Below, piece after piece: positions 1 to 26,040 of a stretch of 32,000 nucleotides of DNA. A program made the position numbers and the translations under genes. The notes beneath the pieces were generated by a model that ran no database searches, was not told where the DNA came from, and was given only the letters and a program-made list of their open reading frames with translations. The stretch comes from Candidatus Saccharimonadota bacterium (GTDB taxonomy: Archaea > Nanohalarchaeota > Nanosalinia > Nanosalinales > Nanosalinaceae). Location of the stretch: the NCBI GenBank assembly GCA_001761425.1, contig CP012986.1, forward strand, positions 420,001 to 452,000. Reading direction: 5' to 3'. How positions within the stretch are numbered: position 1 is the stretch's first letter; the number at the start of each line of letters is the position of its first letter.

Positions 1-253
1 TCCTGGCTTCTCCTGATTCTTTCGGTTCGACTGTGATTTCTTCCTGTACGTCTATGATAGATTGGAGGTCTTCATCGGGCTGTATTGTGTAGGTGGTGGT
101 CTGGTTGCCTGTGTTTCTGATATCGGCAGTGTATATCTGGGTATCTCCTTTGAAGATCACGCTCAGTGATGGTATGTCGCTGTTGACGCTGAGGCCTGCA
201 CCTGAGCTTGCAAGCAGTAGTAAGAGGCCTGTGATCACTATTTTCTTTTTCAT
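1..253 (-). CDS. Secreted protein, 5' part only (84 codons, continues beyond window start)
   Basis: Manual reverse translation from ATG at 253..251 gives MKKKIVITGLLLLLASSGAGLSVNSDIPSLSVIFKGDTQIYTADIRNTGNQTTTYTIQPDEDLQSIIDVQEEITVEPKESGEAR. The basic n-region plus hydrophobic core is a Sec-type signal peptide. The mature part resembles the CARDB/NEW3-type beta-sandwich segments in the membrane-proximal part of the giant protein. The start overlaps the giant-gene stop as ATGA. It is absent from the ORF track because it is open at the window edge. Confidence 0.75.
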   Translation of the reverse strand, partial: MKKKIVITGLLLLLASSGAGLSVNSDIPSLSVIFKGDTQIYTADIRNTGNQTTTYTIQPDEDLQSIIDVQEEITVEPKESGEAR

Positions 254-3200
254 TTTATATCCATCTCGTCTTTGAGGCTGTCGATGTACATGTTTGCCAT
301 TTTGAATCTTCCTTCCTTGAGTTTGTTCTCCGCGAGCTGAAGTTCTAGGTCTTTGTCCCTTGTGTCCTGTCCCTGTTCTTCTCTTCTCTTGAGTTCCTGT
401 TTGAGTTTGTCAACTTCTTCTGAGAGGTTGTGGTATTTTTCCATTTCTTCGTCTGGTATTTTGTGTGGGTTGTGGTATGTAGGCCTGAAATCTACGAACC
501 ATGGCTCTCCGTCGTTGTAGTTTGAGTTCTGGATCATTCCTGTTCCTACGTCTTCGCTTGAGATTCTCTTGGCGAATTCCTGGCCGTATTTTTTCTCTAC
601 ACGGTTTATGTCTTCCATGGATTTGGTTTGCATCTGTATTTCTGTCATGATGTTTCCGGAGATTGCTTGTTTGAAGTCTGCTGTGACTTGTGATGCCATC
701 ATTAGGCCTATGCCCCATTTTCTGAATTCTCTTGCTCCTTTTTCGAGTGCTTCGTATCCTCCTTGTCCTCCGTATTCTTCTAGGAGTCTGTGGACTTCGT
801 CGAATACGATTAGCATCTCTAGGTCTGGGCTTTCTTCCCATTCTTTGTCGAAGATTTGATCGATTATGTTTCTTACTGCTCCGTCGAATTCTTCTGTCGT
901 TAACTGGTTTAGTGTGAATACTGTGATTTCTCCGTCGTTCTGAAGGTCTTCGAAGTTGATTTCAGGGTTTTCTGAGCTGATTTCCTTGATGACGCCTCTG
1001 TATGGATGTGCGTCTTCCTGTGCGTCCATTTCGAACCTGTCGTAGTGTTTCTCCAGGTCATCGTCCTTGAGTTCTTTCACGAATCCTGTCCACTGTGCTG
1101 TTGGGTCGAAGACGATGACCGGTACATCATTTTCTAGAGCTTCCTCTGCGATGACGTTGGCTGTTACAGATTTACCTGATCCTGTGGATCCTGACACGAT
1201 TGCGTGTGTTGTGAGGTCGCTTGGATCGATGAATGCATCTTTCTCTGTCTCTGCGATCTTTCCGACCCAGTAGTTGTCTTCTTCCTCCGGTGGAAGCCTG
1301 TCGTAGTCCACTGGGAAGACATAGCGTGCCTCTTCCTCCTTCCTGATCCAGTAGTACTGGTAGCCTTTCCAGCCGACGATACTGATCAGGATTACAGCAA
1401 GTATCAGGATCGTTGCCCTGGTCTTGAACGGGGTCCAGAACCTTTCCTCGATTACTACCGTTGCCGAATCAACTACTGTCTGGTTCTTAGCGTCCGCCAC
1501 CGTTTGAATGTAATAGCTGCCTGAAGGGATCTCCTGTGTTGAAAGCTCTCTCTGCATGGAAGTGGCTTCTTCTATACTGACAGAATCATTCAGTTCTCTT
1601 ATCACCTTGTCAGTATCGCTCTCCCTGAAGTAATGTGTGAAGTTTATCTCTACAGGAGTTTCCATAGTGATCTGGCTCACACGGGTTTCAAAGCTGAAGT
1701 TAGAGCCAGGCTCTACATTCTTCGTAAGTGACTTCACGTTTAGATCGAAGCCATCTATACCTTCTCTAGCCACAAGGATCGACTGCGAACTGTTCACGGT
1801 GGTATTGCCGTACTCGGCTACAATCTGGCCTGAATACGTCTTGATCTCTGCATCTTCAGGGATAACAGCCCTTAACTGGGTTATAACTGTCGAGTTAGCC
1901 GACACATTGATTTCAGTGTTATCAGGTCCAAGGAGCTCACTTATCTCGCCTTGGATCGACATATCAAGTTCTATACTTTCCTCCCTGTTGTTATCTATCT
2001 CAAGCAGGAAAGTTCTCTCCTCGCCACGGAACATGATAGGCCTGAAAATCCTTGGTGAGAGAACAAACGGCTCGGTAGCTATGTCTGACTTGTTCTCCTG
2101 CTCGGACTGGTTGCTGTCCTGACCGGTATTTGGAAGGCCTCCGCCTGTTGAGCCGCCGTTTTCATCCTGCTGTTCTTCGCCTCCTTGCTGATTCTGGTTG
2201 TTATCTCCATTGTTTCCGCCGTCATTGTTTTGAGGTGTGTAGAGTCTTTCAACGATGTAGGAGGAGGTACTGTTGGTTGAGGCCTGAACAACGTTTTCGC
2301 TCATGTTTACGGAGGAATTGAGCTGGTTCCATTCTGAGGTACTGCAGTTGCTGACATCGTCGTATTTACACTTGAATATCCTGAGGTTGTCCTCTTCTTC
2401 CTCGTCGAAGTCTTCGGTCTTCGAGTAGTTGAGCTGTACAGAGGCCTCTCCGAAGCTCATGTTGCTGTCGATGGAGACTCCTGTGAACGATCTGTTTGTA
2501 GTATCTTCCGGATGCTCAAACTCAACTGATTCTCCTGAGTCTACAGGCGAGACATTGACAGGATCAGATATGTCGTCTTCGACACTCGAGTTCACGAATT
2601 CGATATTGTGCACTGGCTCGTTTGTCTCCTCAGGCCTGTCAGGCTGAACATCCATGTTCACATCGTAACTCCTGTTCTGAACTTCTAGATCGTATTCTTC
2701 GCCGGTCGATTCCTCGATCAAGGTAGTATTTGATGAAGGCCTCTCGAACTTGAAATCAGTGTTCACACCGTCCATAGAGCCGGTGAAGTTTACGAATGGA
2801 GCAACAGATACAGGCAATTTTACCTCTCTTACATTGCCGTTTACATCCTGTAGGCCGACGACTACATCGTAGTCTCCGTCCCTGCCTGTTTCAGTCAGGT
2901 TTCCTGTGTAGAGGCCTTCACTCTGTTTGTTCATTGAAATGTTTTCTACTTCTGTGTCGTTCTCGAGGTAGATTCCTGTGGCGGAGACATTGTTGATTCC
3001 GACGTTGTCAGCGGCTTTTACACTGAGACTGGCGTTTTCTCCCTGGTTGACATTGTCGCCGTTTTTCGAAACTATGAACGGAGCTGTGACATCTCTGTAC
3101 TTGAGGCCTTTCCTGTCTTTGATCTCCAGGTTGTCTTTGAGGGCTGTAAGCTCGTAGCTTACGTTAACAGGGTTTTGATCGATGCCTGGTGCTTCACAGT

Positions 3201-6200
3201 TGATCTTCCAGAGGCCTGAACTGTTTGTGTAGGTGGAGTTCGTGTTTGAGCAGGTTTTTCCTTCAATTGAGGCCTTCCATTCTGAATCGTTGATCTGCCG
3301 TGTGTTGTTGTATGTGATGTTGGCGTAGGCCTGTACTGTGTCTCCTGCGGTGATGTTTTTCTTTCCGTTCTCTGCTGTGATGTTTTTGATATCCATTACG
3401 ATGTTTCTGACGTTAAGTGTTGTGTTCAGAGTCTCCAGTTTCTCGTTTTCTGGGTTGAAGAACGTTACTGTGCTGTTGTAGGTTCCTGGATCTGAACTGT
3501 TGAATCCTAGTTCTATATTTTTTAGTTCCTGTGTCTCTACGGTGCTTGCGGAGACAGTGATATTTTTCTGTATATCGAGTAGATCTGAGTTTTGTCCCTC
3601 GTAGATCTGGAGGAATAGTTCGCTTGTTTTGTTGTTGCTTACTGTGGCTGTATCGAATGTTCCGTAGGTTTCAGCTGCGACTGTTGTGTTGATGTACTCT
3701 GGGCTTATTGAGAAGTTCGTGGAGTTCGCTTCTCCGTCTGGGGAGATTTCCTCTCTATCGGTATTACCTCCGAGATCTTCTCCTGCTACGCTCTTTCTGC
3801 CTCTGCCTGTGTTAACGTTTAGGGTCTTGAATCTGTATTCTGAGCTTAGGTTGTAGAATCTGGACTGCTCTATACCAAGTTTGAAGTCGTAGGCTCCTGC
3901 TTCAGGTGGGAAGAAGCTCAAGTTAGCGCCTCCGTTTTCTCCTGTGTCAACGGAAGTCAGTTTGTTGACTTCGTCGAGGCCTACAAGCGTAGAGACGTTC
4001 TCTCCGGTTCTGTTGTGTTTGAAAGTCCATTCTATTTCTCCGACGTTTGAACCACATCTCTTCCTGTATTCGGAGATATTGTACTGTTTAAGCTCCCAGA
4101 GGTCTGTTGAACTGTATTTTTCAGTGTAGCTACAGGCCTGGGAGCTGTTTATCTCATCGTTGAAGCTTAAGTTGAACGGTAGTTCGCTCTGGGTCCAGAA
4201 GCTGACCAGTTCTGCTTCATCGAATGTTTTTGTATCTCCGCTGAATGCTTCGTAAGGCCTTCTGATCTTCACTGTATCGTTTACTGTCATGTTCGTGATG
4301 TTGGCAAGTAATGCGTTTCCGCCGAATACTCCTGATGTTCTGTTGCCTTCTACTTTGTCATCGAATCCTGGTTTTTCGCCGACGTATGTGCCGTTTGCCA
4401 GGCATGATCCGCTTTCGACACAGCTTTCATAGTCGTTGTTTACTGGAGCGGTCTCGAAACCTGTCTCTCTGTCCTCGTTACCTGATCCGAGAAGCTCACG
4501 GCTCATAAGCTCCTTCCTGTCTTCAAGGTCGGTATCTTTAACCACGATGCTCTCAACTGTGATTTCTCCGGAAGTGTTTACTCTGAGGCCTTTTACCGGT
4601 CCGTCTTTGAATTCTACTTCTTTCTCTGCGGATTGTTCTGTCGCTATGTTGTTCCAGCTTCCGTTTCTTCTGTAGGAGAGGTTCCAGCTTCCAGAGCTGT
4701 TTGTTTTGATCAGGAGTTTCTCTCTGTCTTCTAGGGATGTGTTGGTTTCTGCAAGGCTTTCATTTATTTCAAGGCCTTGTTCAGTGCTGTTGATTGTTCC
4801 GTTTGTTGTCCATTCTTCCGTGCTGAGGTTGATACTGTAATCTGGTTTTTTCTGTCCGTATCCCAGGTTGAAGCTGTAGTCATTGATCCCTCTGTCGGTG
4901 AAGGCCTCCCGTATTCTCGGTGTGATCTCTATGCCTGTGCTGTTGGAGAAGTTGAAGGCCTGTGTTTCCTCCGTCTGGTTCCAGAATGGTTCTATACCTG
5001 TTCTTATCTCGAGTTGTTTTTCTGTGTAGTTTGAGTCGAAGTAGTTGTCTGCTGAGGCTTTTACCGAGATGTTTTCGAGGCCTATTTCTGTACTGTTTTC
5101 TGGGTTCCAGGTGACTTTGCATTCTCCTGTTGTCTCTGTGTTGTTTGTCTGGCATTTTCCGATGCTTCTGTCCTTGAACTTGAAGTAGGCGGTCGCGTTC
5201 TCTACTGAGAGGCCTCTGTTTGTTACTTTTGCTGTTATCTCTGTATCTGTTGGTTCGCTGAGGTTGTCTCTGTATATTGTTTTGTCGCTGATATCTGTTA
5301 TCTCTGTGTTCAGTGTTCCGCCTACAAACACATTGTTCGTGATATTTGTGTTTGTATTATTGTAGTAGAGTGTCGAGTTGTCCTTGATCTCGGCTTTTAT
5401 CGTGTAGTCTCCGATAGTGGTGTTCTCTGTGTTCCAGGAGACGTTGTACCATCCATCAGGTCCTGTGGTATCGTTTCTCCAGGCCTCTGTGCTGTTGTCC
5501 TCGTATTTCCTGTAAAGCTGTACAGGGTAATCTTCTATACCTGTGGAGGTATTTTTATCCGCTACTCTGAGTGTCAGGTTGACGATGTCATCTTTGGAGT
5601 ATCTTCCGGAACCGTTGAAGCTGAGTTCGCTCCATCCGTAGATCGTCAGGTTGTTCCTGGCTCTGTCAGGTGTGTATTCTCCTTTCTCAGCTGTAGTGTT
5701 CAACTGGTAAGGGCCTAGGCCTAGTCCGTCGGTGTTCCAGAGGCCTTTCTCTCCTGTGCCGTTTGGATCTACTGTCTGGCCGTTGTGTATCCATTTGATT
5801 GTTGCTGATGTTTCGTTGTATGCATCTTTGACTCGCGCAAGTAGCTCCTGTTCGCCGTATCTGTGGACGATTTCTTCAGGTTTCTGTACTGAGATGTTTA
5901 GCTTCTCCGTCAGTTCCACATCTGACTGCTCCTCTGAGTTCTTTACTGGGAGGTACCATGTTCCTGTTCTGTTTTCTGTGATATCTGTCTTTAGGGTGTG
6001 GGTTCCGACATAGTCTTCATAATCTGTATGCCATTTTATCGAGCATGTGCCTTTTGTATCTGTAAGACTTGAGTTGATGAAGTCTCCTTCGTCGTAGAGG
6101 TTACAGCTGTAATCACTTACTTTACTGTTGTTTCTAGTGTTTACTACCTCTGCCTCCGCTGTTACAGTCGAGTTTTTCCTTTCTGTAGTTGAAGGCGTTA

Positions 6201-9200
6201 CCTGGTTGATGTTTATGTCGACAGGATCGTATACCTCAACGATTTTACTGTCGGATGTTTCTACACCTTCACTGTCTTCTGTACTGACGTTCAATCTGTG
6301 GATTCCTGTACTGATACTTTTTACTTCCCAGGAATCTTCTTTACCGCTTCCTATGTTGCTGTATCCGCTTGAAGTATTGATCGACCAGTTAACAGTGTTT
6401 GGAGTAACTTCTGTGCCGTTTTCGTCAGTTATTGTCGCACTTAGATCCTGTATCGATCCTCTTACTAGGTCTGTATCGTTTTCTCTGATGAGGCCTTCTC
6501 TAGGTTTTCTTATATCGACTGAGAAACCTCCTTTTATCTCGACTATGCTTTCACTTGTTGTGAAGTTATCGAAGTACTGGTTCTTGGAGGCCTTTGATCT
6601 GATCGTGGCGTTGACGGGGTTGGAGACATCTGTGTTCCATGTGATGCTACACTGGCCGCTGCTGTTTGTCTCACATGTCCTTGTTGTTTCAAAGTTTCCT
6701 GTGACGTTTGTGATCAGGTCTACTGTTGCGTTCTCGACTCTGTCTCCGTCTAGATCTGTTACCGTGTAGTTTAAGCTTACGTTGTGATCTGGCTGTTCGT
6801 CGTACCAGTACATATCTCTGTCATCGATTTCTCTGTCCACGCTGAGGCTATCGTTCAGTGTTATCTCGATGCTTTCCTGGCTGTCCGTTGCATTGATGTT
6901 TTCTGATTCTTTATCCTGTATCTTCGCGGTCAGGTTGTGAGGACCTAGTTCCTCGTTTCCTGCGTCCCATTCGAGCTCTGCGAGTTCATTTCCTCCTGTA
7001 GAGACGTTTCCTATCTTTGTACCGTTATCATACAGGGCGACATGGTATTCTTCGAAGGCCTTTTTGTTGCTGTCCAGGATATCTCTAACCTCGGATTGTA
7101 GGTTGAGGAGGCCTCTGTATCTCTGACCGGAGTTGTTCAGAAGTTCTACATCTGCTTTCTTGAATACGTTTACATCGACTATCTTAGCGTCCTGACAGTC
7201 TTCGCCTCCACAGTTTGTATTGTCTTGAGCTGTCGCTGTGAACTCTGCTATAAATCTGCCTGAGTTCTCTATACCATTTGTCTCGAGTGTAGTGTACCCT
7301 GTAGATCCTTTCGGAACGTTGAATCCTTCTCCGTCTACGTAGTAATAGTTTTCGTTAAGTAGGTCACTACCGTTGATGGGGCTTTTGGTCCTGGAGATTT
7401 CCACGTTTTCAAGGTCATAGTTACCAAAGCTGTAGATATCGAATTCTGCAAGCTCTGTGCTTTCACCCCACCAGATATCGGTTCTTTCAAGGCCTCCGGT
7501 CTCCTTAAGTACAGGGTTCTTTTTGACCTCGAGATCAAGGGTGTCAGATATCTCTTCTTCAGAGTAATCAGGGTTCACCCATTCCCCGAATTCAGAGACT
7601 CTTCTTGTACCCGGTGAGGCCTTGGAACTGATGTTTACAGATATTGTGGTACTGCAGCTTGAACCGTTTTTGATTTCTCCACAGCTGTAATCTGAGCTGT
7701 TCGTGACTATTCCTTGTTGTGCTAGGGCCTGTTGAATCGTTGTGTTGTAGGATGTAGCAAGGCCTGTATTTTCGAAGGTTACGTTGACATCTGTTTTACC
7801 TGTGTAGTTCTGTGTGATGTTGTTGAACTCTGTTCTGGATGCGTTCATCTCCAGTTTTCCTTCTGTCTTGCCTATGGCTTTGAAGACTTTCCCGAAGCTT
7901 TCTGTCCGGCTTTCCTGTGTACCGTCGGTCGCTGAAACTGTGATATTGTAGTATCCGCTGTTTTCAGGAGTATAATCCGTTGCATAGATGCCTCCTGTCT
8001 GGTTACCGGAGTTAGGTTGCACCAGGTTGAGGTCTGTAAATGTCTCACCAGTGTTTTCTATTGTAAGTTCTGTCTCTGCGATTTCGTTTGTATCAGTTAC
8101 GTTCACTCTGATCTGTGTTGATTCTCTGTTCTGCTCAGGCCTTGTTTCAGAGGCTGTCGCGAATGGGATCTTTGGAGGCTGTGCTGTAATGGCTAGTCTG
8201 TAGGTTGTGTTAGCTGTGTTGTCCGCCTGGTCTGTTACTTTTGAGATGAACGTGTAGGTTCCGTTCGTGGCGTTGAAGTACACAGGCCTTTCAACCAGTC
8301 TGTAGGAGGATTCGTTGTACTGAGGTATTTCCGTAACGTTTCCTGCAGGTCCTTCGTATGATTCGTTTGTTGCGTAAAGTGTTGTAGATAGATCAGTTTG
8401 GTCTGTCGTGTTCTTGAGCCTCCAATCCAGGTACCATTCTCCTAGGGCAGCGTCCGGATTGCCGTCACTGGCGTTCAAAGCATCAAGAGTACCAACATCT
8501 GGCTTGCTGTTGTCTATCTCAAGGCTGTAACCTGTCTCGTTTGTCCATCCTGCCTGGTCTGTCGCAGTTGCCTCGATATCACAGACGGTTTCTTCTGTGC
8601 ATCCGAGGTCTCCGGCCTGATCAACTCTGTACCAGATCGAACTTTTGGTACTGTTCATAGGTTCGCCGTTTATTTTTACGCTGGAAAGATTGTACCTGTC
8701 ACTGGCGTTGACTGTAAAGTTCAACGTGTGATCGCTTCTGACTACATCGTTCGTGGAGTTGGATGTCAGGTTCAGAATTGAGGGCCTGTCGTAATCAACA
8801 GTGTATTCAGCTTCGCTGTTTTTGTCAGTGTTGCCTGCCTGGTCAACAGCGGTGACGTTCACAAAGCTGTCATTATCTATCTCCACTACGCCTTCCCAGA
8901 CACTTTCCGGGTTGGCTCCTGAATTGTCGGTTTCTAGATGGCTGAGACTGTCGTTTTCGGCCGTCAACTCGGTTATTGAAGTTTCAGTATCATCTATCAG
9001 GGTAAGGTTGACTTCAAGATCAGAACTTGGCTTGACAACTCTATCGCTGTCGTTTATAGAGACATCAGTTATTTCAGGGTCTACATCATCGATAGTGACC
9101 TCGACAGAATTGTTTTCGTAGTTATCAGCCTTGTCCTCCGCTGTAACTGTCAGACCACAAACTTCTCTGTTCGCTTCAGTCACACACCCAAGTTCTCCTG

Positions 9201-12200
9201 GAGTTCTATTAATCTCATAAGTATCTCCTTCAGTGTTCTCCATCTGGATCTGCTCATTTGTTTCTTTTTCCCAGATTGTCACGTTTCTGAGGTAATCATC
9301 CGTCACCGTCAGGTTAAACCTTAGAGGCCTGTCACTTCTACTTACGCCGTATGTTGCGTTAGAAGTGAAGCTGTATGTTTCAGGTGCTTTATCATCTATT
9401 GCATATTCAGTGCTGTTTTCTTTCCCGATGTTCCCTGCTTTGTCTACTGCGGTTACGTTGACGACTTCATCATTGTCTACCTCTATCTCATTTGTCCAGA
9501 GTGAGCCGTTCCATGAAAGGCCTTTATCTTCTGCTGTGACCTCTGCCAGTGTTTTGTCGCTTTCTCCGCTAACGTTTATTTTGGCTTTGACTGTGCTGTT
9601 GGACTGGATGATGCTGTCATTGATTTCTACAGAGTTGACATCAGGTTTGACATCGTCTATGTTAAGCTGGTATTCTACAGTTTCGTTGTTACCTGGTACG
9701 TCTTCAGCGTAGAACGTGAGGTTGCAGACAAATTCTCCTCCTGAGCTACATCCTAGGCCTGAAGGTGTATCTGTCAGTGAGTAGAGGGAACTTCTGTTGT
9801 TCATCTTGTTTTCTTCAAGTTCGACTGATTCAAGTCTCAGATCCTTTACCTCTGCTGTGAAATTCAGTAGGGAATCGCTGTTACTGACGTTGTAACTGGC
9901 GTTCGCACCGTAGCTTGTGAATTCCGGAGGTGTATCATCTGTCTCTACTCTGATACTTTCCGAGTCATTGACGTTACCTGCCTGATCAACAGCATCCACA
10001 GTAAAGTCCGAGGAGTTATAGACTGGAACAGCACAGCTGTAAGCCGACCCTGAACTTTCCTCCATACTGCATTTGGCCTCACTGCTGTTCCTCAAGGTGA
10101 CTGAGTCGATATTGGCATCGCTTACATCTGCCGTGAAATTCACTTTGTCACCAGACCTGATGATCGAGGCGTTCGTCGAGATATTGCCTACTTCAGGCCT
10201 CACATCGTCGATAGTCAGGTCAAGGCTCTGTGTCCTAGCGTTACCAGCTTCGTCGATTGACTCGGCTGTCAAGGTACAAGTTGAATCAGCTACGCCCTCA
10301 GAACAGCTCAGGTTAGCTGGTGAATCGACTAACTCCCATGGAGAGCCTTTGGAAAGTTTCGAACCTTCTATCCTGACGTTTTCAAGATGCTCGTCACTCG
10401 TTGAGACATTGAATTGGAGAGGATTATCTGACCTTGTAACTCCGAAGGACGCGTTTGAAACGAATTCTGAGATCGAAGGCCTTTTATCGTCAATCGTGTA
10501 ACCTGTCGAATCATTGTAGGCAAAGTTGTCTGCGGAGTCTATCGCTGTGACGTTGACAGGGTTCTGTGTCGAGTTATCAACATTGATAACTCCTGTGTAG
10601 TAGTTACCGAAGTCATTCGTAAGGTTCACGCTGTTTGCATTAGCCCATCCAAGCGAACGCTCATCTATAGTCGTGTTGACCTCGATATCAGTATTGGACT
10701 GGACCACAGTATCGTTCAGATCCACTCTCTTGATGGAAGGCGCTGTATTATCGACAGTCAGGTTATAGTAATCAAACTCGATGTTATCCGCTTTATCAAC
10801 AGCTTTCGCCGTAAGATTGTACTCTTCCTCAACAAGACCAAGATCTTCAGGCCTGGTCTCCAAGTACCAGGTACTACCGGAACCGTTAACCATCTCGGCG
10901 TAACCGTCCGTACTTCTGTTCTCAAGCTTAACCGATCTCAGATAGGTATCAGAGGACTCAACCTCGAACCTGACAGTATCGTCACCTCTCGAGAAATTAT
11001 TTGAGGCATTGGAACCAAGGCCTGAAATTGAAGGCCTTTTATCATCAATAGTATAGGTCAGGTTCTCATAGCTCTCAGTGTTCCCGGCAAGGTCTGTCAC
11101 AGTCAGGTTTACATCTCCGTCTCCCACAGGGATGACACCAGACCAGTTGTAATTATTCTGAGAAAGGTCCTCTCCATCCGCAGTCACCTGATCAACCTCG
11201 TAATCATCCTCCGCAATAGCCCAGACCTCAAGACTCTGGTTAGACTGTACAATAGTATCGTTAAGGCTTGAATCTGTGATATTCGGTGAAACACGGTCAA
11301 GGAATACGTACTCTGAAAGATCGAATTCCAAAGCATTATTTTCTAAAGTATCTTCTGAATAAACCTTGAAGGAGTAATTCCCGGCCTCAAATCCGGAAGG
11401 ATCCCAGGAAGCGGAACACTCCAGGATCGAACCGGTGTAAGAACAGGCCTCATCAATATCAGCCTCAAACCCGCTCTCAGACACATTGATCAACGTAAAG
11501 TTCGTAGCCGAAGCATTCAGACTATCGTCATCCACAGTACCTGAAAATCCTGCTACCTGGTTCCCATTCGTAATCGAAATATTCGAATCAAGGCCTGAGA
11601 TAGAAGGATCCGTATTATCTACAAAGAACTGGTAGGTATTTTGCTCTGGATTTCCTTCGGTATCGGAGGCCTCCACGCTTAAGTCTGTCAGACCGTCGTT
11701 TAATTTTGAGGTGTCGACTGGTGCAGTCGAGAAGCTGTGATTGGAGTTCTCGGTGAGATCTGAAAGGCTGCCTCCGTCTATACTGTATTTGTAGCTTGAT
11801 GGATTATCGTTCAGAAGCTCGTCTATTATACTTATGTTGAAGATCTTTGAACCATCTAGACGGCCGTTTTGAATGTTCTTTGTTTCTACTGAGATGCTTT
11901 CCACAGCTTCAGGTAAGTTGAGCCCTGATACCTGGTACTCCCCTGTGTATCTATTATTAGATTTCTCGTACATGTTTCTGATTTCTGATGAGCTCATTGC
12001 TTCGTTGTAGACTTTTACCTCATCATAGGAGCCAGGAACGTATCCTCTGCCGTCCGGACATCCTTCATTTGTAGCTCCGCCGATCTTTAGGGCGTCTGCA
12101 GAGTGTTCGATAGGACCAGGATCCTTGTAATTATAATCTATAAGTTCTCCATCTCTGTAGAATGCCATCTTTCCTGTACTTTCCTCATAGGTAAATGTGT

Positions 12201-15200
12201 AGTGTCTCCAGTCGTTGATTGGATAGCCCAGCTGTTCTCCATACCTCTTGTCCGCCCAGTGAGGCCACCAGCGTGTTCCGTTAACATCAAAGGCGACTGC
12301 GCCACTTTCCTCAAGGACGATGTCCCATCCTTTGTCTGTACCTGAACTGCTTGAACCTTTGTATGCAAAACTCCTCCAGTTATTGCCGGAGCTGCAGGTT
12401 AAGTTTCTATCCAGCTTAAACCATGTGGAGAAGGTTAAGGAACTGGTGTTCAGATCGGAGGATCTGCTGACTTCAATAGATTGATTCCTTCCGTTCAGGT
12501 TTATCGCACTTGTTTCCGCAATTCCTTTAGAGACAATTTCTGAACCGTTGTATAAAGTTGCGCTGTTTCCTTCACCAGAGTAGTCTTGTACGATCCCGCC
12601 CGATCCAGATACATCTTGATCAAATCTCCAGAAACCAACAAGTCTGTCGCCACTGGAACCATCTTGTTTACCGAGACCTAGATTGCCTGAATTAGCGTTT
12701 CTATCTGTAGACAGACCCTGGTAGTTTCCTCTATCCCAGTCCCCCTGTGTCGAAATTTCTTCAATTATGGCCCCATCATCTGCTTTCAGAGTTAGTGAAT
12801 CTATTACTGCACTTCCTGTAGCACTGTCTGATGCCATATTTATATCCAAAGAAGCAGAACCACTCGTGCCTGAAAATTCTACAGGATAGGTGTCGATACC
12901 AGGACTTAGCTCTATAGTTTTTGTCCTCGAGCCATCATCAACTGTAATAGTGGCCTCGTTGTAAAGCTCTTCCTTGAAATCGATTTCAGGAGGCTCGTTG
13001 TCAATCTTTACCTCTTTCTCGTAGACTTTGTCATTACTTACTGTATCTGAGGCCTTTACTGTGAGCATGTAGTATCCGTCGGCGAGGCCTGTCGTATCTA
13101 CGTTGGTTGAGAACTCGTTTCCTGAGGTCTGTGGCAGGTTTGCAAAGCCTTTTCCGATACTTGTATAGTTTCCTGAGCTGTTGCTGAATGCGTACTGTAC
13201 AGAACCTGAGTCTAGGTTTGAAGGCCCTAGATTGATGCTGTCGAAGTACGTGTCGTAGGCGTTTGAGGCAGTTCCGCCCATATCTCCTCCATCCAGCTGT
13301 ACTGTGATAGTATCTGCGTTTTCAGGTACTTTGAATCCTGTTGTGACATTTGCCATTCCGCTGTCATCAAGGTAGTGGGAGGCCCATACTCCTTTTTCAT
13401 CTTTGATTAGGCCTCCTGAACTGTTCCAGACCTTTATGTGGAATCTTGAGTCGTCCTCTCCTCCGTATTGTTTGTATGTCTCTTTACTCTGGTCATCTTC
13501 AACTTGCATACTGTCTCCATCACCGAAGAGGTCTCCTCGGAAGTCTACAGATTTCCCTGCGATTCTATTGACTTTCTCTCCTGTGATATTATTCTGTGCT
13601 GTAGTTGAGGGATAGACACCGCCGTCGAAGAACGCACAGTATGTCTGGCCGTCTCCATCGTCGTCCGTACAATAGCTTTGAGCTGAACTGCTCGCTGTTC
13701 CACCGCTTAGTGAAGTCTCAGCAGTACATAGATATTCATCATATGAGTAACCGGCGTTAGGTAAGTCGTTATAGTCACTGATATATCCTGAACTGTCGAA
13801 ATTCTGCCATCCTAACCATGTATCTGCATCGTAGTCTCCACTAGGTTCTGCGGCATCTACTCCGGATGCCGCCCAGAAACTCTCTCCTATAGTGTTTTGC
13901 CATCCATTTGTGCCTCCTCCGTACAGGTTGTCATTTCCTAATGCATCTGTTCCGTAGTCCTCTGATTTTAAGCTATAATCTTTGTGAGCATCGAAATCCT
14001 CTGGAGGGCTATCGGCAGATGTAGTTCCATCTTCGCCGTCTAGTGGGTAATGTATTCCGAGCGGTCCTGGACCACCAGGAGCATCCCAGTTACTTGGCGA
14101 ATAACCGTACTGGTTAATGATGTAGTTTACTCCCACATCATACTCGCTGGGTCCACGAGGAGTCCACAGCTCTAGGCCTTTTCCAGTACAAGTATTAGAC
14201 TGGCCTACCGTGCTTGTATTCATTCCGTCTTGGACATAGTAGAATGTATATACATCGGATACTGGGCCTCCGCTTTCTACAGGATTGTTTGGATTTGGAT
14301 TCATTTCACAGTATGCGTTAAATGGGTCATTGCCGCCGCGTCCATCAGGATCTATCTCATAAGTGCCGCTGGTCGTTGTACCTTGTGAATAGATACTGGA
14401 GCATGTGTAATTGTAATCGCTAGACTGAAGGATCTGCCCAGTGTTCGTGAATGTCCATTGGCTAGAATTCCCGTCTTCGAAGTCTCCGTTAGGTACTTCT
14501 GGAGGACTGTCCGTCACCTCTGTATCAAGTGTTACTGTACCGGAGAAGTTGGTGTCCTGGTTCTGCAGTGTGACATTCGGTGCAAACTCGTCTACAGTCA
14601 CTTCGACGTAGTTCTGTTCAAAGTTCAGGTTTTCATTTCCAAGTGTGTCATTTGCGTACACAAGGTATTGAGTTGAGGCATTAGGTGATACCTGGCAGCT
14701 TCCATCGAACTCACTGTCGTCACAGACCACGTTCATGCTGTCGTTTTTGAAGTCTTTCATAGTGACTAGCATCGACGAATCCAGGTGATCTTCCTTATCG
14801 TCTACTGTTGCACTTACAGTTACAGTTTCTCCTGGGCTGATTGTCTGGTCGGATGAAAGGCCTGTGATCTCTGGATGATTACTGTCCACGGATAGCTGGA
14901 CTGTTTCAGTGTCGTTGGTGTTTTCAGCACCGTCAATCGCGTGGAATCTGTAGTTGAATGTATCAGTTTTATCTGGAGCATTTATCGTACACTCATAGGT
15001 GTCTCCACCGGTGTTTGAGAAACTACTGTTGCTGCAAACAGTATTCCCTGTATCTTCTCGTGTCACATACGTATTGTCGAGAGCGTTGTCTGTTACATCT
15101 GCTGAGAAAGTTACTTCATCTCCGTTTTTAACTAGGCTAGGTGTTACCTGCTCGTTTTTCACATCGGGGATTGATGTATCTACTGTATAGGTTGCAGTCG

Positions 15201-18200
15201 CTTCATCAAATGAGCTGGCTCTTTTTTCGGTCACATTTACAGTTATTGTTTCATCGCTGACGTCTTGGTCACTTGTGCTGTCAGCTACTGTCGTTGCTTC
15301 ATATAGTGCCCATCCCTGTACATTGTCACTGGTTGATGGGCTGCCTACAGACTTTCCATCTACGATAATAGACTCAACAGATTGAGGATCATTTCCTACG
15401 TTTATGCCTGAGATGTTTATGTCTACGTTCAGATCTTGGTTCTTCTTTCTTGGATCGGAGCCCTCTATTGTAAGATTTTCGATTGTTGCTACAGTAGTAT
15501 CTTCGAATACGTTGATAGATCGGCTTGTGGTATCGTCAGTTTCTGAAGTTGTATCTGAAGCTCTTATCTTGTATGTACCGTCATTGTCGATATTTTCTGT
15601 TGTTGAAAAAGTACAGTAAGTCGTACATGTGCCAGAGGTTGTCGTCATTGAGGCTACTAAGTTATTATCCTTGTCAAGGAGGTCAACACTGTCCAGGTTC
15701 CCGTCAATGTCTCTGACCTGAGCTGTGAAGGTTACGTCTGCCGTATCTGGCTGGAAATAGTTGGGATTGGCGTCTACTGAATTTATCTCCGGCGAGCTTG
15801 CATCGTTGTTATAATCCGGACAGACCCCAGGTTCCTCATATTTGTCATCTTCGATTCCGTCAAAGTTACATCCTCCAGCGTATTCATCTGAGTAGGCCGA
15901 ATGGTTTGCGTAGTAGGCCTTATCATCTTCGTAAAGACTGCTGCTCTCATCTCTGAACTGGTCGTACTGAGTCTGGTTCATTGAGGAGTCAGCTGATTCG
16001 TTCACCCAGTATCTGTCAGGAAGATTGTCGTATCCACAGTCTGGAGGTGCTGAGACTACTGTCTCACCGTCTTCACATTCTCCGTTGATATTGACATCTC
16101 CTTCTCCGCTTCCCAGGCTTTCGTATACTGTGTACTTTCTGTTATCGGTTGCGAAGGGATCTTCTCTTGCCCAATCTTCCTCATTAGGACCAGGTTCAGC
16201 CCAGACTTTGAAAGTGTAGTTCTCTCTGTATTCTTCGTTGGAAAAGTTGAACTGGAATTTTGCCACGTCTTGATCTCTATAGTAGTCATCTCCCTGACTT
16301 AGGTCTTTGTTAGCTGAGTCCGAACAGTTTAGACAAGTCGCATGGAAGATGCCGTCAAACCTTCCAGGCAGGCTTTGTGTTGTATTGTATTCAAAGAAAC
16401 GTGCTGTGAGATTGAATATGTCTTTATCACCTGTTTCTCCCTCCAATGATGTCGGCGCACTTATTTCGGTTTCGATCCTTGCTCTCATGTCGTGTTGGAT
16501 TCCTACTCTGTCCTCTCTGTCTCCTTCGAACTGGCCGTTAATGTTTCCCTTCGCACCGTCTTCTTGGTGGTGTACTGCTGAACAGCCTGTGAATCCTCTT
16601 CTATACTGGTTTCTGGCTACTTCGAAATATTCTTTTTCTGCATTTAACCATACGAGCTCCTTTCCATGTATGTTGTAGTAACCAGTGTTGCCCATTCTGA
16701 TCCAAGAACTCAGTGAACCAGTCTTAGGTCCAGAAGAGATGGCACTGCTCCAGTCAAATGTTCCGCTCCCCCATCCATATGCAGGATCATCATTACTGTT
16801 TGCACATCCATCTTCCTGAAGTTTCCAGATAATCTCGTCAAGCTCTTCTTCTGGTATCTCATTGCCATTCATATCCTCTACAGTCGCTGAGAACGTGAAG
16901 TTGTCCATCTGGTAGGTGTCTTCCCAAGCAGTGGGATCATTCATCGTAATATTGAGCGTACCTCTCACATCCAGAGGCCTTGTCACCGGATCAGGCTCGA
17001 ATCCGTCTTCTGGATGTGTCGCATTGATTTTGAGGTCGTATGATCCAACAGGGAATTCTCCTCTCGGGTTCCAGGATGTGTGTGCTAGGTATTCGTCCCA
17101 CCAGGTGTTTTCGTTATCGTTTCTTGCGTTCTCGAATTCTGTCAGGTTCACGTCGTCTTCTCCGATCTTCTCGGTTATCTGCTGTCCGTCGTCGCTTGTA
17201 CCGGTTATCCAGAATTTTACGGTAGAGTTTTCGACCTCGTATTTTTCATCGCTGTCAGGGAAAGGTGTGGTGACGTTCCCGGCTACATAAAGCTTCTCAG
17301 GGTTCTTCCAGGGGCCTCCATTCCTGTAAACTGCTCTATTTGGAAGATTATCAAAGTTATTGCCATTAGCGTTTTCCTCGTTGTTGTCTCTGTACGATGC
17401 GGAGATATTCAGTACATCAGGGATTACGAGAGTCTTGTTGGCCTGTGTAGGATTTTCTGTTTCGTAGTAAGAACCTGGAGCATCTTCAATATTTACGCCT
17501 GTATCATAAGCTCCTTTTTCAAAGCCTGAAGGATCCCAGTAGAACGTAGCAGTGCCGTCTCCATCAGTTTCTGCAGTGTAACTGTTTCCAGCAATCCAGT
17601 AATTTACGGTGTAACCTGATTTGTCTTCTATTCCTGGGATGCTGATGTTAGCCCTGATAGGATTACTTGAGTTAGGCTCAACGTATTTGTACGGGTCATA
17701 GGCCTTTATACTGGTCTTTCTTTTTGAAGTAACATTTGCCTTGTCTGAATCAGTCTGAAGGTAAGGGTGCTTGGCTACAACGGAGATATTGCCGGGACCG
17801 TAGGCATAGCTCGGAACAATCCAGGAACTAACTCTTTTAGAGCTGATCACTCTCTCAGTATCGTTGTCTCTGAACTGCCAGTTGTAGTTAATATCCATGG
17901 AGTCTTCATTCCCTGTAGCAGTGTTTATGGAAGATCTCAGGTCAATCTCGTCCTGATAGAATATATCTCCTCCTGCAGGATCTTCTAAAGTAACTGAGGC
18001 CTCGTCTATGAAGTCTAGGGCCTTAGATTCTTTTTCCTGAAGGATTGTTGTGTTGATGCTTGAGGTATTCTCAAGTTCTGCCTGTACTGTATGTTCTCCT
18101 GGTTTGTACTGGCTTCCAAGGTTTACAGTGGTGTTTGCGGAGGCCTGACTGTCCGTACTTTGTTCCTTCACCTTGTTTCCGTCTACTTTCCATGTTATGT

Positions 18201-25971: not shown

Positions 25972-26030
25972 AGTCCTCTTGAGAGTACTTCTTAACCGGG
26001 TACTTTTCGTGATAAGAAAACTCCCTCTCT

Positions 26031-26040
26031 ATTATAATAA
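26031..26040 (-). promoter_or_regulatory. TATA-like box (TTATTATAAT) upstream of giant gene
   Basis: It lies 60-70 nt upstream of the TTG start. A start site about 25 nt downstream would fall near 26005..26013. It overlaps the in-frame TAG at 26029..26031. Confidence 0.35.

What the first reader, a model, noticed from the sequence alone, without database searches (positions are those of the whole stretch)
253..1440. HerA/FtsK-type motor ATPase covalently fused, through one TM helix, to an ~8,150-aa extracellular chain
The last 364 residues lie on the cytoplasmic side of the only TM helix (1345..1422). They carry Walker A GSTGSGKS (1168..1191), Walker B MLIVFDEVH (790..816) and the block REFRKWGIGLMMASQ...NIMTEIQMQ (619..732). 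Together these are the signature of HerA/DUF87-type members of the FtsK-HerA superfamily; this is assigned from motif knowledge, not from a search.

Such ATPases normally work as hexameric translocation motors. Examples are HerA, FtsK, VirB4/VirD4 and the membrane-anchored HerA-like CedB of the crenarchaeal Ced DNA-import system. Here only about 50 residues separate the helix from Walker A, so there is no room for the usual N-terminal HAS barrel. The motor is instead the C-terminus of a giant adhesin-like protein.

A hexamer would bundle six giant ectodomains around a ring of six TM helices. That geometry would suit a contact-dependent import/export device between an ectosymbiotic archaeon and its host. 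I do not know of a described system with this architecture.
Basis: partly seen in the sequence, partly recalled or inferred. Interest (0 to 1): 0.92.

Follow-up and report, generated by a model that had tools for sequence, protein, structure and literature searches.

The report
Giant archaeal adhesin with HerA-like ATPase tail
This is the published giant "SPEARE" surface protein of a salt-loving nano-archaeon; its cytoplasmic tail really is a HerA-type ring-motor ATPase, but that architecture was described in 2019 and 2023, so only the details of its partners are new.

Summary
One 8,573-codon ORF (250..25971, minus strand) encodes a signal peptide, an ectodomain of about 8,160 aa, one TM helix and a cytoplasmic tail of about 365 aa. 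The tail carries the Walker A, Walker B and REFRKWG...SQ motifs at the stated coordinates.

The HerA/DUF87 assignment is supported by Pfam, NCBIfam and PADLOC scans, by PDB sequence hits, and by a confident AlphaFold model (pLDDT 89.5) whose best fold match is the HerA hexamer. The catalytic motifs and the trans-acting Arg/Lys finger are invariant in 100 relatives. There is no HAS barrel.

The novelty claim is not supported. The window is Nanohaloarchaea archaeon SG9, and the protein is its published "SPEARE 1" (Hamm 2019). Reva et al. 2023 already re-annotated the tail of SPEARE proteins, SG9 included, as a TM-anchored VirB4/TraG-like ATPase with a terminal coiled coil.

What I add:
- The closest clade is HerA, not VirB4, and no T4SS or Ced partner genes lie nearby.
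- A translationally coupled 625-aa short paralogue follows the giant gene through an ATGA overlap, and 17 of 84 related loci have such a tandem pair.
- A coiled-coil partner gene follows the ATPase gene(s) in 72 of 84 loci.
- The module sits at the C-terminus of proteins of 600 to 7,900 aa in at least 421 protein clusters, in DPANN and in Hydrothermarchaeota.

The substrate and the oligomeric state remain untested.

The parts
250..25971 (-). Giant ORF (8,573 codons from TTG, stop TGA at 250..252). This is SPEARE 1 of Nanohaloarchaea archaeon SG9.
   Evidence: JGI calls the same 8,573-aa gene on the 1.125-Mb SG9 contig. The published 8,553-aa length equals a start at TTG 25911.
25903..25971 (-). 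N-terminal hydrophobic signal-peptide segment (aa 1-23).
   Evidence: Hydropathy scan. A basic n-region is encoded just upstream, without a canonical start codon.
1423..25902 (-). Ectodomain of about 8,160 aa. It is acidic and rich in Ser, Thr, Asn and Asp, and its 80 Cys lie in close pairs.
   Evidence: No Pfam family at E <= 1e-3 except a weak Big_13 Ig-like hit. Weak internal repeats lie at about aa 4500-6000. Cys pairs occur only here.
1450..2067 (-). Two membrane-proximal beta-sandwich (Ig-like) domains. They belong to the conserved module shared with the short paralogues.
   Evidence: AlphaFold model of the last 640 aa, pLDDT 86.8, all-beta at residues 36-135 and 143-241. The family profile covers this part in giant homologues.
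1345..1422 (-). The single transmembrane helix.
   Evidence: Hydropathy scan. The model shows a continuous helix at tail residues 4-37.
1291..1326 (-). Conserved cytoplasmic juxtamembrane linker RYVFPVDYDRLP.
   Evidence: R39, Y40, P43 and P50 are invariant or nearly so.
454..1272 (-). HerA-clade FtsK-HerA P-loop ATPase core.
   Evidence: Pfam DUF87 E = 4e-12, above the gathering score. NCBIfam CedD and HerA hits. PDB HerA sequence hits. Foldseek HerA 4d2i E = 5e-12. PADLOC mad8 and HerA hits.
1168..1191 (-). Walker A, GSTGSGKS.
   Evidence: The pattern G-x-T-G-x-G-K-[ST] is 100% conserved in 100 relatives.
790..816 (-). Walker B, MLIVFDEVH(R).
   Evidence: D, E, H and R are 100% conserved.
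688..732 (-). REFRKWGIGLMMASQ. The R-K pair is the predicted trans-acting arginine/lysine finger, and the terminal SQ is the sensor-1-like residue pair.
   Evidence: It aligns to AKEGRKYG...ASQ of anti-phage HerA 8xau, whose R455/K456 act in trans on the neighbouring subunit's ATP (PMC11291478). It is 100% conserved.
253..453 (-). C-terminal three-helix coiled coil with the conserved motif LAxNKLKEGRFKMxxxY.
   Evidence: Model helices at residues 330-392. Conservation is shown.
1..253 (-). Start of the downstream short paralogue (gene B, AQV86_02330, 625 aa). Its ATG overlaps the giant ORF's stop as ATGA, and the gene runs off the window.
   Evidence: 85 of 85 residues are identical to P0015; gene order on the SG9 contig.
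26153..30031 (+). Divergently transcribed 1,292-aa protein (gene C) with an N-terminal signal or TM segment and a C-terminal TM helix. It is a candidate accessory surface component.
   Evidence: No Pfam, NCBIfam or PADLOC family. Homologues lie next to the ATPase genes in 9 related loci, blastp/tblastn E = 1e-24 to 1e-79.

Best explanation
The region is the cytoplasmic C-terminal module of the published giant 'SPEARE' surface protein of Nanohaloarchaea archaeon SG9.

**Shown**
- The protein is a type I membrane protein. It has a signal peptide, an ectodomain of about 8,160 aa with paired cysteines, two conserved membrane-proximal Ig-like domains, one TM helix, a catalytically intact HerA-clade FtsK-HerA ATPase without a HAS barrel, and a conserved C-terminal coiled coil.
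- The gene is translationally coupled to a 625-aa paralogue carrying the same Ig-TM-ATPase-coiled-coil module.
- Downstream follow a conserved cytoplasmic coiled-coil protein and a small Zn-ribbon/TM protein.

**Inferred**
- The trans-acting Arg/Lys finger, Walker A/B and sensor residues are invariant. The ATPase therefore most likely works only as a ring oligomer, hexameric by analogy with HerA and FtsK, held against the membrane by its TM helices.
- In tandem-gene organisms such as SG9 the ring is probably mixed, made of giant and short subunits. Only one or a few giant chains would then emanate from each motor.
- The motor couples ATP hydrolysis to threading a polymer through its central pore at the host-contact site. 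DNA is the most likely substrate by analogy with HerA, FtsK, Streptomyces TraB and CedB/CedD. Unfolded protein is the alternative.

**My estimates**
- Identity, fold and topology: about 0.95.
- Active ring ATPase: about 0.7.
- Mixed giant/short ring: about 0.4.
- DNA as substrate: about 0.3.
- The overall confidence given for this explanation is a blend of these.
For: **Identity**
- The length matches the published protein, the downstream gene is identical to AQV86_02330, and the locus lies on the SG9 contig.

**HerA-clade ATPase**
- Pfam DUF87 scores 47 bits against a gathering score of 23.2, and HerA_C 30.6 against 22.
- The best NCBIfam hits are CedD and then HerA.
- PDB sequence hits are nearly all to HerA-type proteins.
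- The AlphaFold model has pLDDT 89.5 and pTM 0.86.
- The top 30 Foldseek hits are all HerA. TcpA, FtsK and VirB4 score about 1e-8 to 1e-7.
- The best PADLOC hits are mad8 and HerA.

**Ring-dependent catalysis**
- The REFRKWG R-K pair aligns with the trans-acting R455/K456 finger of HerA.
- It is 100% conserved together with Walker A/B and SQ in 100 sequences of all gene types.

**Paralogue pairing**
- The stop and start overlap as ATGA in SG9.
- Tandem pairs occur in 17 of 84 loci from several DPANN lineages, and 10 of them use a 4-nt overlap.
- The tails show concerted evolution and a roughly 100-aa gene-conversion tract.

**Partner gene D**
- It lies downstream of the ATPase gene(s) in 72 of 84 loci, on the same strand in all but three and usually directly adjacent.

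**Family norm**
- At least 421 cluster representatives score E <= 1e-30. The top 150 mostly carry the module at the C-terminus of proteins of 600 to 7,878 aa.

**Topology**
- All 80 Cys lie in the ectodomain in close pairs, and none lies in the tail.

**Precedent**
- CedB and CedD are two HerA-clade paralogues that are both required for DNA import (10.1101/2024.09.27.615246).
Against: - No oligomer was modelled or measured.
- No polytopic membrane protein that could form a channel (CedA-, VirB6- or FtsK-TM-like) is encoded in the conserved neighbourhood. Six single TM helices are a poor conduit for DNA.
- Many family members are single genes without an adjacent short paralogue, so a mixed ring cannot be general.
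- No DNA-binding residues were identified. The HerA insertion-subdomain residues that contact DNA could not be mapped.
- In Ca. Nha. antarcticus, proteomics found the ectodomain and the TM/cytoplasmic part in different size fractions (PMC6642349). The mature protein may therefore be cleaved.
- The family occurs in Hydrothermarchaeota, outside DPANN. This weakens a strictly host-contact role.
Confidence: 0.55

Rival explanations
1. Type IV secretion-like 'straw' (Reva et al. 2023). The tail and the downstream ATPase are VirB4/TraG-type secretion ATPases that inject protein effectors into the host through or along the giant protein.
For: - VirB4, VirD4 and TraG belong to the same FtsK-HerA superfamily.
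- There are weak hits to AAA_10 (26.9 bits, below the 27.5 gathering score), TrwB_AAD_bind (20.8 against 20.5, 42 residues around Walker A), TraC, TraD and VirB4-like models.
- Foldseek matches TcpA at 3e-8 and VirB4 4ag6 at 8e-8.
- The proposal is made in PMC10266531.
Against: - HerA-type models and structures score consistently better.
- Reva et al. cite the VirB4 N-terminal domain PF03135 for the downstream ATPase. It is not detected in P0006 or P0015 even at E <= 1. That region is instead a signal peptide plus extracellular Ig-like domains.
- No VirB6, VirB8, pilin or relaxase families occur in the flanks.
Confidence: 0.15
2. The ATPase is a force-generating, assembly or anchoring motor rather than a trans-membrane translocon. 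The ring acts on the conserved cytoplasmic coiled-coil partner (gene D), or on its own coiled coil. Its role would be to cluster, tension, deploy or recycle the adhesin, as a kind of attachment-organelle base.
For: - Gene D follows the ATPase gene(s) in 72 of 84 loci.
- The C-terminal coiled-coil motif is nearly invariant.
- No channel-forming partner is present.
- The ectodomains vary widely while the cytoplasmic module is strongly conserved.
Against: - Characterised FtsK-HerA ATPases thread DNA or polypeptides, and none is known to work as a pure anchoring motor (established knowledge of the superfamily).
- Gene D has no informative homology, only generic coiled-coil hits. The interaction is therefore inferred from synteny alone.
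Confidence: 0.2
3. Restriction-endonuclease tail (the original SPEARE interpretation, Hamm et al. 2019). The cytoplasmic domain would degrade imported DNA.
For: The Pfam ResIII hit has E = 1.7e-8, 35 bits against a gathering score of 22.5.
Against: - The ResIII match covers only the generic P-loop motor region (Walker A to Walker B) and scores below DUF87.
- No nuclease domain appears in Pfam, NCBIfam or PADLOC.
- The fold is a HerA-type ATPase plus a coiled coil, with nothing else.
- PMC10266531 already rejected this interpretation.
Confidence: 0.03
4. HerA-based defence or conflict module. The ATPase would act as a scaffold or sensor as in the Sir2-HerA, DUF4297-HerA or MADS systems, with the ectodomain acting as a surface sensor or decoy.
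For: PADLOC mad8 scores 1e-17 and there are many HerA defence models. Structural matches include anti-phage HerA complexes.
Against: - No Sir2, DUF4297, NurA or other effector partner lies in the conserved neighbourhood.
- The hits reflect the shared ATPase core only.
- Membrane anchoring with a giant ectodomain is unknown for those systems.
Confidence: 0.05
5. Assembly artefact. A misjoin or missed frameshift would have falsely fused an adhesin gene to a separate ATPase gene.
For: None was found. Giant repetitive genes are prone to assembly errors in general.
Against: - The same continuous ORF across the junction is seen in the closed genome of cultured Ca. Nanohalococcus occultus and in independent MAGs.
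- The fusion is present in most of the top 150 family representatives.
- Proteomic detection of the orthologue is reported in PMC6642349.
Confidence: 0.01

Closest known systems
SPEARE / giant surface proteins of Nanohaloarchaeota (Hamm et al. 2019, PMC6642349; Reva et al. 2023, PMC10266531)
   Same: This is the same protein. It matches the SG9 8,553-aa entry and has the same architecture: signal peptide, giant ectodomain, one TM helix, cytoplasmic P-loop ATPase and terminal coiled coil. An ATPase gene lies immediately downstream.
   Different: - The domains implied by the name (serine protease, laminin-G, restriction endonuclease) are not detected in this protein.
- The ATPase is closer to HerA than to VirB4 or TraG.
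- The downstream 'VirB4' is in fact a short paralogue of the same TM-anchored module, and it has no detectable PF03135 domain.
HerA (archaeal HerA-NurA end-resection helicase; bacterial anti-phage HerA)
   Same: It shares the RecA-like FtsK-HerA core, Walker A/B, the ARExRKxG...SQ block with the trans-acting R-K finger, and a C-terminal helical region. HerA gives the best sequence and fold matches.
   Different: There is no N-terminal HAS barrel. A TM helix and an extracellular domain take its place. No NurA, Sir2 or DUF4297 partner is present. The protein is membrane-anchored, and its scores are far below the NCBIfam equivalog cut-offs.
CedB/CedD of the crenarchaeal Ced DNA-import system
   Same: CedB and CedD are HerA-clade ATPases acting at the membrane, and both paralogues are required for DNA import. 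CedD is the best NCBIfam hit.
   Different: The score is 45 bits against a cut-off of 600. The VirB4-NTD-like N-terminal domains are absent. No CedA, CedA1 or CedA2 genes lie nearby. No giant ectodomain exists in the Ced system.
TM-anchored FtsK-superfamily translocases (FtsK/SpoIIIE, Streptomyces TraB, T4SS coupling proteins VirD4/TrwB/TcpA, T7SS EccC/EssC)
   Same: All have an N-terminal membrane anchor followed by a cytoplasmic ring ATPase that threads DNA or protein. There are weak sequence and fold hits.
   Different: Those proteins have 2 to 4 TM helices and little or no ectodomain. Here a single TM helix follows an ectodomain of up to about 9,000 aa. The Pfam FtsK_SpoIIIE score of 16.6 is below the gathering score of 24.

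Membership tests
FtsK-HerA superfamily (P-loop, ASCE division) | Walker A, Walker B with a catalytic D-E pair, a polar sensor residue after the next strand, a trans-acting Arg finger and a RecA-like fold | tested here: met
   All motifs are present and 100% conserved. The fold matches HerA, FtsK, VirB4 and TcpA. The R-K pair aligns to the HerA R455/K456 finger.
HerA clade / Pfam DUF87 (PF01935) | A score above the Pfam gathering threshold for the HerA central domain | tested here: met
   47.1 bits against 23.2 for DUF87, and 30.6 against 22 for HerA_C.
HerA proper (HerA-NurA helicase) | An N-terminal HAS barrel | tested here: not met
   About 55 residues lie between the TM helix and Walker A. 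The model shows only a beta-hairpin there.
HerA proper (HerA-NurA helicase) | Operon partner NurA (with or without Mre11 and Rad50), and NCBIfam equivalog-level similarity | tested here: not met
   No NurA or Mre11 families occur in the flanks. The NCBIfam HerA scores of 18-29 bits compare with cut-offs of 800-970.
HerA proper / any ring translocase | A hexameric ring with a central pore that binds DNA | not testable with these tools
   Only monomer prediction is available. A ring is inferred from the conserved trans finger.
VirB4 (T4SS ATPase) | The N-terminal CagE_TrbE_VirB domain (PF03135) plus an AAA_10-type C-terminal ATPase | tested here: not met
   PF03135 is absent at E <= 1 in the tail, P0015 and P0006. 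AAA_10 scores 25.7-26.9 bits, below the 27.5 gathering score.
Type IV secretion system | Co-encoded channel and pilus components (VirB6, VirB8, VirB2-like) or a relaxase | tested here: not met
   None appears among the called genes within 8-10 kb in four loci. Whole genomes were not searched.
VirD4/TraG coupling protein | Two N-terminal TM helices, an all-alpha domain, and T4SS-DNA_transf or TrwB_AAD_bind above threshold over the domain | tested here: inconclusive
   TrwB_AAD_bind scores 20.8 against 20.5, but only over 42 residues around Walker A. T4SS-DNA_transf scores 16.5, below 20.1, in P0015. The protein has one TM helix, not two.
Ced system (CedB/CedD) | Equivalog-level similarity, and CedA-family membrane partners | tested here: not met
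   CedD scores 45 bits against a cut-off of 600, and CedB 18.5 against 700. The neighbouring genes have no NCBIfam Ced hits.
FtsK/SpoIIIE | PF01580 above threshold, four N-terminal TM helices and a gamma domain | tested here: not met
   PF01580 scores 16.6 bits, below 24. There is a single TM helix.
SPEARE proteins (as named: serine protease, adhesion, restriction endonuclease) | A giant ectodomain, a C-proximal TM helix and the conserved cytoplasmic tail | tested here: met
   The tail is 80% identical to that of the N. occultus giant protein.
SPEARE proteins (as named: serine protease, adhesion, restriction endonuclease) | [quoted passage not shown] | tested here: not met
   There is no protease or nuclease family at E <= 1e-3 over the 8,573 aa. 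The ResIII hit covers only the P-loop motor.

The most novel reading that the evidence does not exclude
The giant protein, its short paralogue, the coiled-coil protein D and the accessory proteins C and E would form a previously undefined, widespread archaeal envelope machine.

- Its core would be a membrane-abutting ring, hetero-oligomeric where tandem genes exist, of single-TM HerA-clade ATPases. Their N-termini are surface fibres of very different lengths.
- It would move DNA or protein between cells, or generate force, without any T4SS- or Ced-type channel components.
- It would be a new class of contact-dependent apparatus, distinct from T4SS, Ced and T7SS. It is present in most DPANN lineages and in Hydrothermarchaeota.
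Probability: 0.25. Interest if true: 0.8.

Novelty: already known. Interest (0 to 1): 0.35.

Why it matters
DPANN archaea depend on physical contact with host cells, and the molecular device at that contact is unknown. The giant SPEARE-type proteins are the leading candidates. They take up 2-3% of these tiny genomes.

The finding itself was already in print, both the giant adhesin with a TM-anchored FtsK-HerA-type ATPase tail and its re-annotation. What the present analysis adds is a sharper definition:
- The motor belongs to the HerA clade, with an intact trans-acting finger.
- In some lineages it comes as a co-translated giant/short paralogue pair.
- It almost always travels with a coiled-coil partner gene.
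- The module is the C-terminal anchor of hundreds of protein clusters, with lengths of 600 to 7,900 aa.

These points turn a vague 'secretion ATPase' label into specific experiments on ring composition, substrate and partner binding. Such experiments are feasible in the cultivable Nanohalococcus/Haloferax and Nanohaloarchaeum/Halorubrum co-cultures.

Tried and rejected
- **Gene D homology.** A word-indexed search found 5 proteins. A profile search against the PDB, Pfam over 41 members and NCBIfam and PADLOC scans gave only generic coiled-coil matches (Rad50/SMC coils, apolipoprotein, baculovirus PEP). No function could be assigned.
- **Gene C and gene E.** Gene C (26153..30031) has no family in Pfam, NCBIfam or PADLOC and no similarity to the giant ectodomain. 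Gene E has only weak Zn-ribbon hints.
- **Ectodomain.** Pfam over all 8,573 aa gave nothing beyond a weak Big_13 hit. Self-comparison shows only modest repeats at about aa 4500-6000. I ran no further search on it.
- **HerA arginine finger.** I first suspected that the canonical finger was missing, because a Thr aligns with an Arg 12 residues before the Walker A lysine of S. solfataricus HerA. That Arg position was from memory. I dropped the idea after the literature showed that the trans-acting finger of HerA is the R-K pair in the ExRK motif, which is invariant here.
- **A/B paralogue phylogeny.** The NJ tree is crude. It cannot separate repeated duplication from concerted evolution, although one search shows a clear conversion tract.
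- **Literature.** Searches for a family-wide description (DPANN + HerA, giant proteins + ATPase, nanohaloarchaea + VirB4) found nothing beyond Reva 2023. The library lacks most subscription journals.
- **Rejected readings.** I rejected misassembly, a restriction endonuclease, and membership of bona fide VirB4, T4SS, Ced or FtsK families.


Full report
**1. Observation**

The window carries one ORF of 8,573 codons on the minus strand, 250..25971. A hydropathy scan finds only two hydrophobic segments. One is aa 1-23, a signal-peptide-like segment. The other is aa 8180-8206, the TM helix, with its core at 1369..1416.

- Walker A GSTGSGKS at 1168..1191
- Walker B MLIVFDEVH at 790..816
- REFRKWGIGLMMASQ at 688..732
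- NIMTEIQMQ at 628..654

About 55 residues separate the TM helix from Walker A. All 80 cysteines lie in the ectodomain, in closely spaced pairs, and none lies in the tail. This fits an extracellular N-terminus and a cytoplasmic C-terminus.

**2. What the tail is**

Sequence evidence:
- The last 449 aa hit Pfam DUF87, the HerA central domain, at E = 4e-12. That is 47 bits against a gathering score of 23.2. HerA_C scores 30.6 bits against 22.
- ResIII scores 35 bits, but only over the generic P-loop stretch.
- AAA_10 (26.9 bits) and FtsK_SpoIIIE (16.6 bits) fall below their thresholds. TrwB_AAD_bind (20.8 bits) reaches its 20.5 threshold only nominally, over 42 residues around Walker A.
- The NCBIfam ranking is CedD, then HerA, then TraC, TraD, VirB4-like models and CedB. 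All are far below the equivalog cut-offs.
- Sequence hits in the PDB are to HerA-type proteins.
- The best PADLOC hits are mad8 (1e-17) and HerA models.

Structural evidence:
- An AlphaFold model built on a 42-sequence alignment is confident, with pLDDT 89.5 and pTM 0.86. It shows a long TM helix, a RecA-like core and a C-terminal three-helix coiled coil.
- In Foldseek against the PDB, the top 30 hits are all HerA. S. solfataricus HerA hexamer 4d2i scores E = 5e-12.
- TcpA, FtsK, DndH-C, STIV2 B204 and VirB4 follow at 3e-8 to 1e-7.
- No HAS barrel is present.

**3. Catalytic competence and ring logic**

In anti-phage HerA, R455/K456 of the neighbouring subunit contact the ATP phosphates and act as the arginine finger (PMC11291478). 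In the phmmer alignment these residues fall on the R-K pair of REFRKWG.

I compared 100 ATPase domains from 84 loci, covering giant, short and single-gene forms. The Walker A pattern G-x-T-G-x-G-K-[ST], the Walker B D-E, the following H-R, REFRKWG and the sensor S-Q are all 100% conserved. This rules out systematically degenerate motifs. It argues that hydrolysis depends on an oligomeric interface. The oligomer itself could not be modelled.

**4. Identity and prior knowledge**

The ORF is 8,553 aa if started at the TTG at 25911. That is the published length of 'SPEARE 1' of Ca. Nanopetramus SG9 (PMC6642349). The gene immediately downstream is identical over 85 of 85 residues to AQV86_02330 of Nanohaloarchaea archaeon SG9. 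The locus lies on the 1.125-Mb SG9 contig, where JGI calls the same 8,573-aa gene.

Hamm et al. 2019 described the giant ectodomain, the C-proximal TM helix and the conserved cytoplasmic tail. They read the tail as a type III restriction enzyme.

Reva et al. 2023 re-analysed these proteins and named SG9 among them. They reported a TM domain followed by a 'VirB4/TraG-like ATPase domain' and a terminal coiled coil, plus a second ATPase gene immediately downstream. They proposed a T4SS-like 'straw' (PMC10266531).

Later papers simply cite these two. Searches for a broader description found nothing more.

**5. What goes beyond the literature**

(a) Clade. Every sequence and fold comparison places the domain closer to HerA than to VirB4 or VirD4.

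(b) The downstream 'VirB4'.
- In SG9 its ATG overlaps the giant gene's TGA as ATGA, at 250..253.
- Its product is 625 aa (P0015). It consists of a signal peptide, two Ig-like domains, one TM helix, the same ATPase (74% identical) and the same coiled coil.
- PF03135, cited by Reva et al. as proof of VirB4 identity, is not found in P0015 or in the N. occultus orthologue P0006, even at E <= 1.

(c) Tandem pairs.
- The giant/short tandem recurs in 17 of 84 related loci from Nanohaloarchaeota, Woesearchaeota and other DPANN MAGs. Ten of them have a 4-nt overlap.
- On an NJ tree the two tails of one genome usually cluster together.
- A metagenomic variant of the short gene (P0003) carries a roughly 100-aa tract identical to the giant's tail. 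The two tails are therefore homogenised by gene conversion.

(d) Module structure. A model of the last 640 aa (pLDDT 86.8) shows two beta-sandwich domains directly above the TM helix. This part is also conserved in giant homologues.

(e) Partner genes.
- A cytoplasmic, acidic coiled-coil protein (gene D) lies downstream of the ATPase gene(s) in 72 of 84 loci, on the same strand in all but three and usually directly adjacent. It has no informative homology.
- A 108-aa Zn-ribbon/TM protein follows in nanohaloarchaea.
- The 1,292-aa signal-plus-TM protein at 26153..30031 has homologues next to the ATPase pair in 9 related loci.

(f) Family size.
- An exhaustive profile search finds 4,525 cluster representatives at E <= 1e-3 and 421 at E <= 1e-30.
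- The top 150 mostly carry the module at the C-terminus of proteins of 600 to 7,878 aa.
- Complete ORFs of about 2,200, 2,950 and 3,100 aa are common in Aenigmatarchaeota, and they lack a tandem paralogue.

(g) Distribution. One member of at least 3,708 aa, with gene D downstream, lies on a 1.9-Mb contig of Hydrothermarchaeum profundi. That organism is not a DPANN archaeon.

**6. Mechanism**

Shown: the domain composition, the topology indicators, the intact catalytic and trans-finger residues, the operon structure and the conservation.

Inferred:
- The tail forms a ring ATPase pressed against the membrane by its TM helices.
- In SG9 the ring may mix giant and short subunits. This removes the need to pack six 8,000-aa chains around one motor.
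- The ring threads a polymer. DNA is favoured by analogy with HerA, FtsK, TraB and CedB/CedD, where two HerA-clade paralogues are both needed for DNA import.

Against a translocon:
- No polytopic channel protein is conserved nearby.
- Six single TM helices make a poor DNA conduit.

The main rival is therefore an anchoring or force-generating motor that acts on the coiled-coil partner. The T4SS 'straw' remains possible, but it lacks the defining T4SS parts. The restriction-enzyme, defence-system and misassembly readings are weak or refuted.

Hamm et al. found the ectodomain and the TM/cytoplasmic peptides of the antarcticus orthologue in different size fractions. The mature protein may therefore be cleaved, a caveat for 'covalently fused'.

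**7. Verdict**

The novelty claim is not supported, because this is an already described protein and architecture. Interest is moderate to low for the finding as stated. The conserved paralogue pair, the partner gene and the family-wide distribution are useful increments and point to specific experiments.

Noticed in passing
window 1..253 (minus strand): The gene for a 625-aa short paralogue (AQV86_02330) begins here with an ATGA stop/start overlap with the giant ORF. It encodes the same Ig-TM-HerA-like ATPase-coiled-coil module, and its tail is 74% identical.
   Followed up: yes
window 25911..26031 (minus strand): Start-codon problem.
- The published 8,553-aa start (TTG 25911) would delete the hydrophobic signal segment.
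- TTG 25971 keeps that segment.
- A typical basic n-region (KSTRLRSTLKRT) is encoded just upstream, between the in-frame stop at 26031 and 25971, with no ATG, GTG or TTG.
- This suggests a non-canonical start (for example ATC at 26013) or a sequence error.
   Followed up: partly
window 26153..30031 (+): A divergently transcribed 1,292-aa protein with an N-terminal signal or TM segment, a C-terminal TM helix and a helical cytoplasmic tail. It matches no known family. Homologues lie beside the ATPase gene pair in 9 related loci, which makes it a candidate system component.
   Followed up: partly
L001:11913-14138 and 14110-14436 (SG9, just outside the window): Two further operon genes lie here. 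One is a 741-aa very acidic coiled-coil protein whose roughly 175-aa core is conserved downstream of the ATPase gene(s) in 72 of 84 loci. The other is a 108-aa Zn-ribbon protein with a C-terminal TM helix, found only in nanohaloarchaeal loci.
   Followed up: partly
P0003 compared with P0015 and window 253..600: A metagenomic variant of the short paralogue is about 100% identical to SG9's over its first 550 alignment columns. It then switches to 98-100% identity with the giant protein's tail for about 100 residues. This is a gene-conversion tract between the two tandem genes.
   Followed up: yes
window 2343..25530 (ectodomain, aa 148-7876): All 80 cysteines of the protein lie in the ectodomain, in closely spaced pairs such as 322/325, 616/619 and 5223/5232. 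The TM helix and cytoplasmic tail have none. This fits extracellular disulfide or metal-binding loops.
   Followed up: no
window 30231..30995 (-) and L002:11876-12640: A PAC2-family proteasome-assembly-chaperone gene lies near the giant gene in both SG9 and Ca. Nanohalococcus occultus, on opposite sides of it. The aIF2-alpha gene is at 31165..31920.
   Followed up: no
L003:1-8001: The public gene call upstream of the short paralogue is 784 aa, but the reading frame stays open for at least 2,666 codons to the edge of the locus. The small opposite-strand genes called there are probably spurious. Giant members of this family are likely under-called in metagenome annotations.
   Followed up: partly
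L068 (Hydrothermarchaeum profundi JdFR-18, 1.9-Mb contig): A family member of at least 3,708 aa, with the coiled-coil partner gene downstream, occurs in a non-DPANN archaeon. Hits in MAGs labelled Methanosarcinales and Heimdallarchaeota (L036, L039, L058, L054) may be mis-binned DPANN contigs.
   Followed up: partly
P0006 / L002:8001-9872: Reva et al. 2023 report a VirB4 N-terminal domain (PF03135) in the ATPase encoded downstream of the N. occultus giant gene. The current Pfam does not reproduce this at E <= 1. That region is a signal peptide plus Ig-like ectodomains.
   Followed up: yes
window 1..26000 (+ strand composition): AT skew on the plus strand is negative over almost the whole giant gene, reaching -0.49. 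It turns positive only beyond 26000. This reflects the A-rich coding strand of the Asn-, Asp-, Glu-, Ser- and Thr-rich ectodomain.
   Followed up: no
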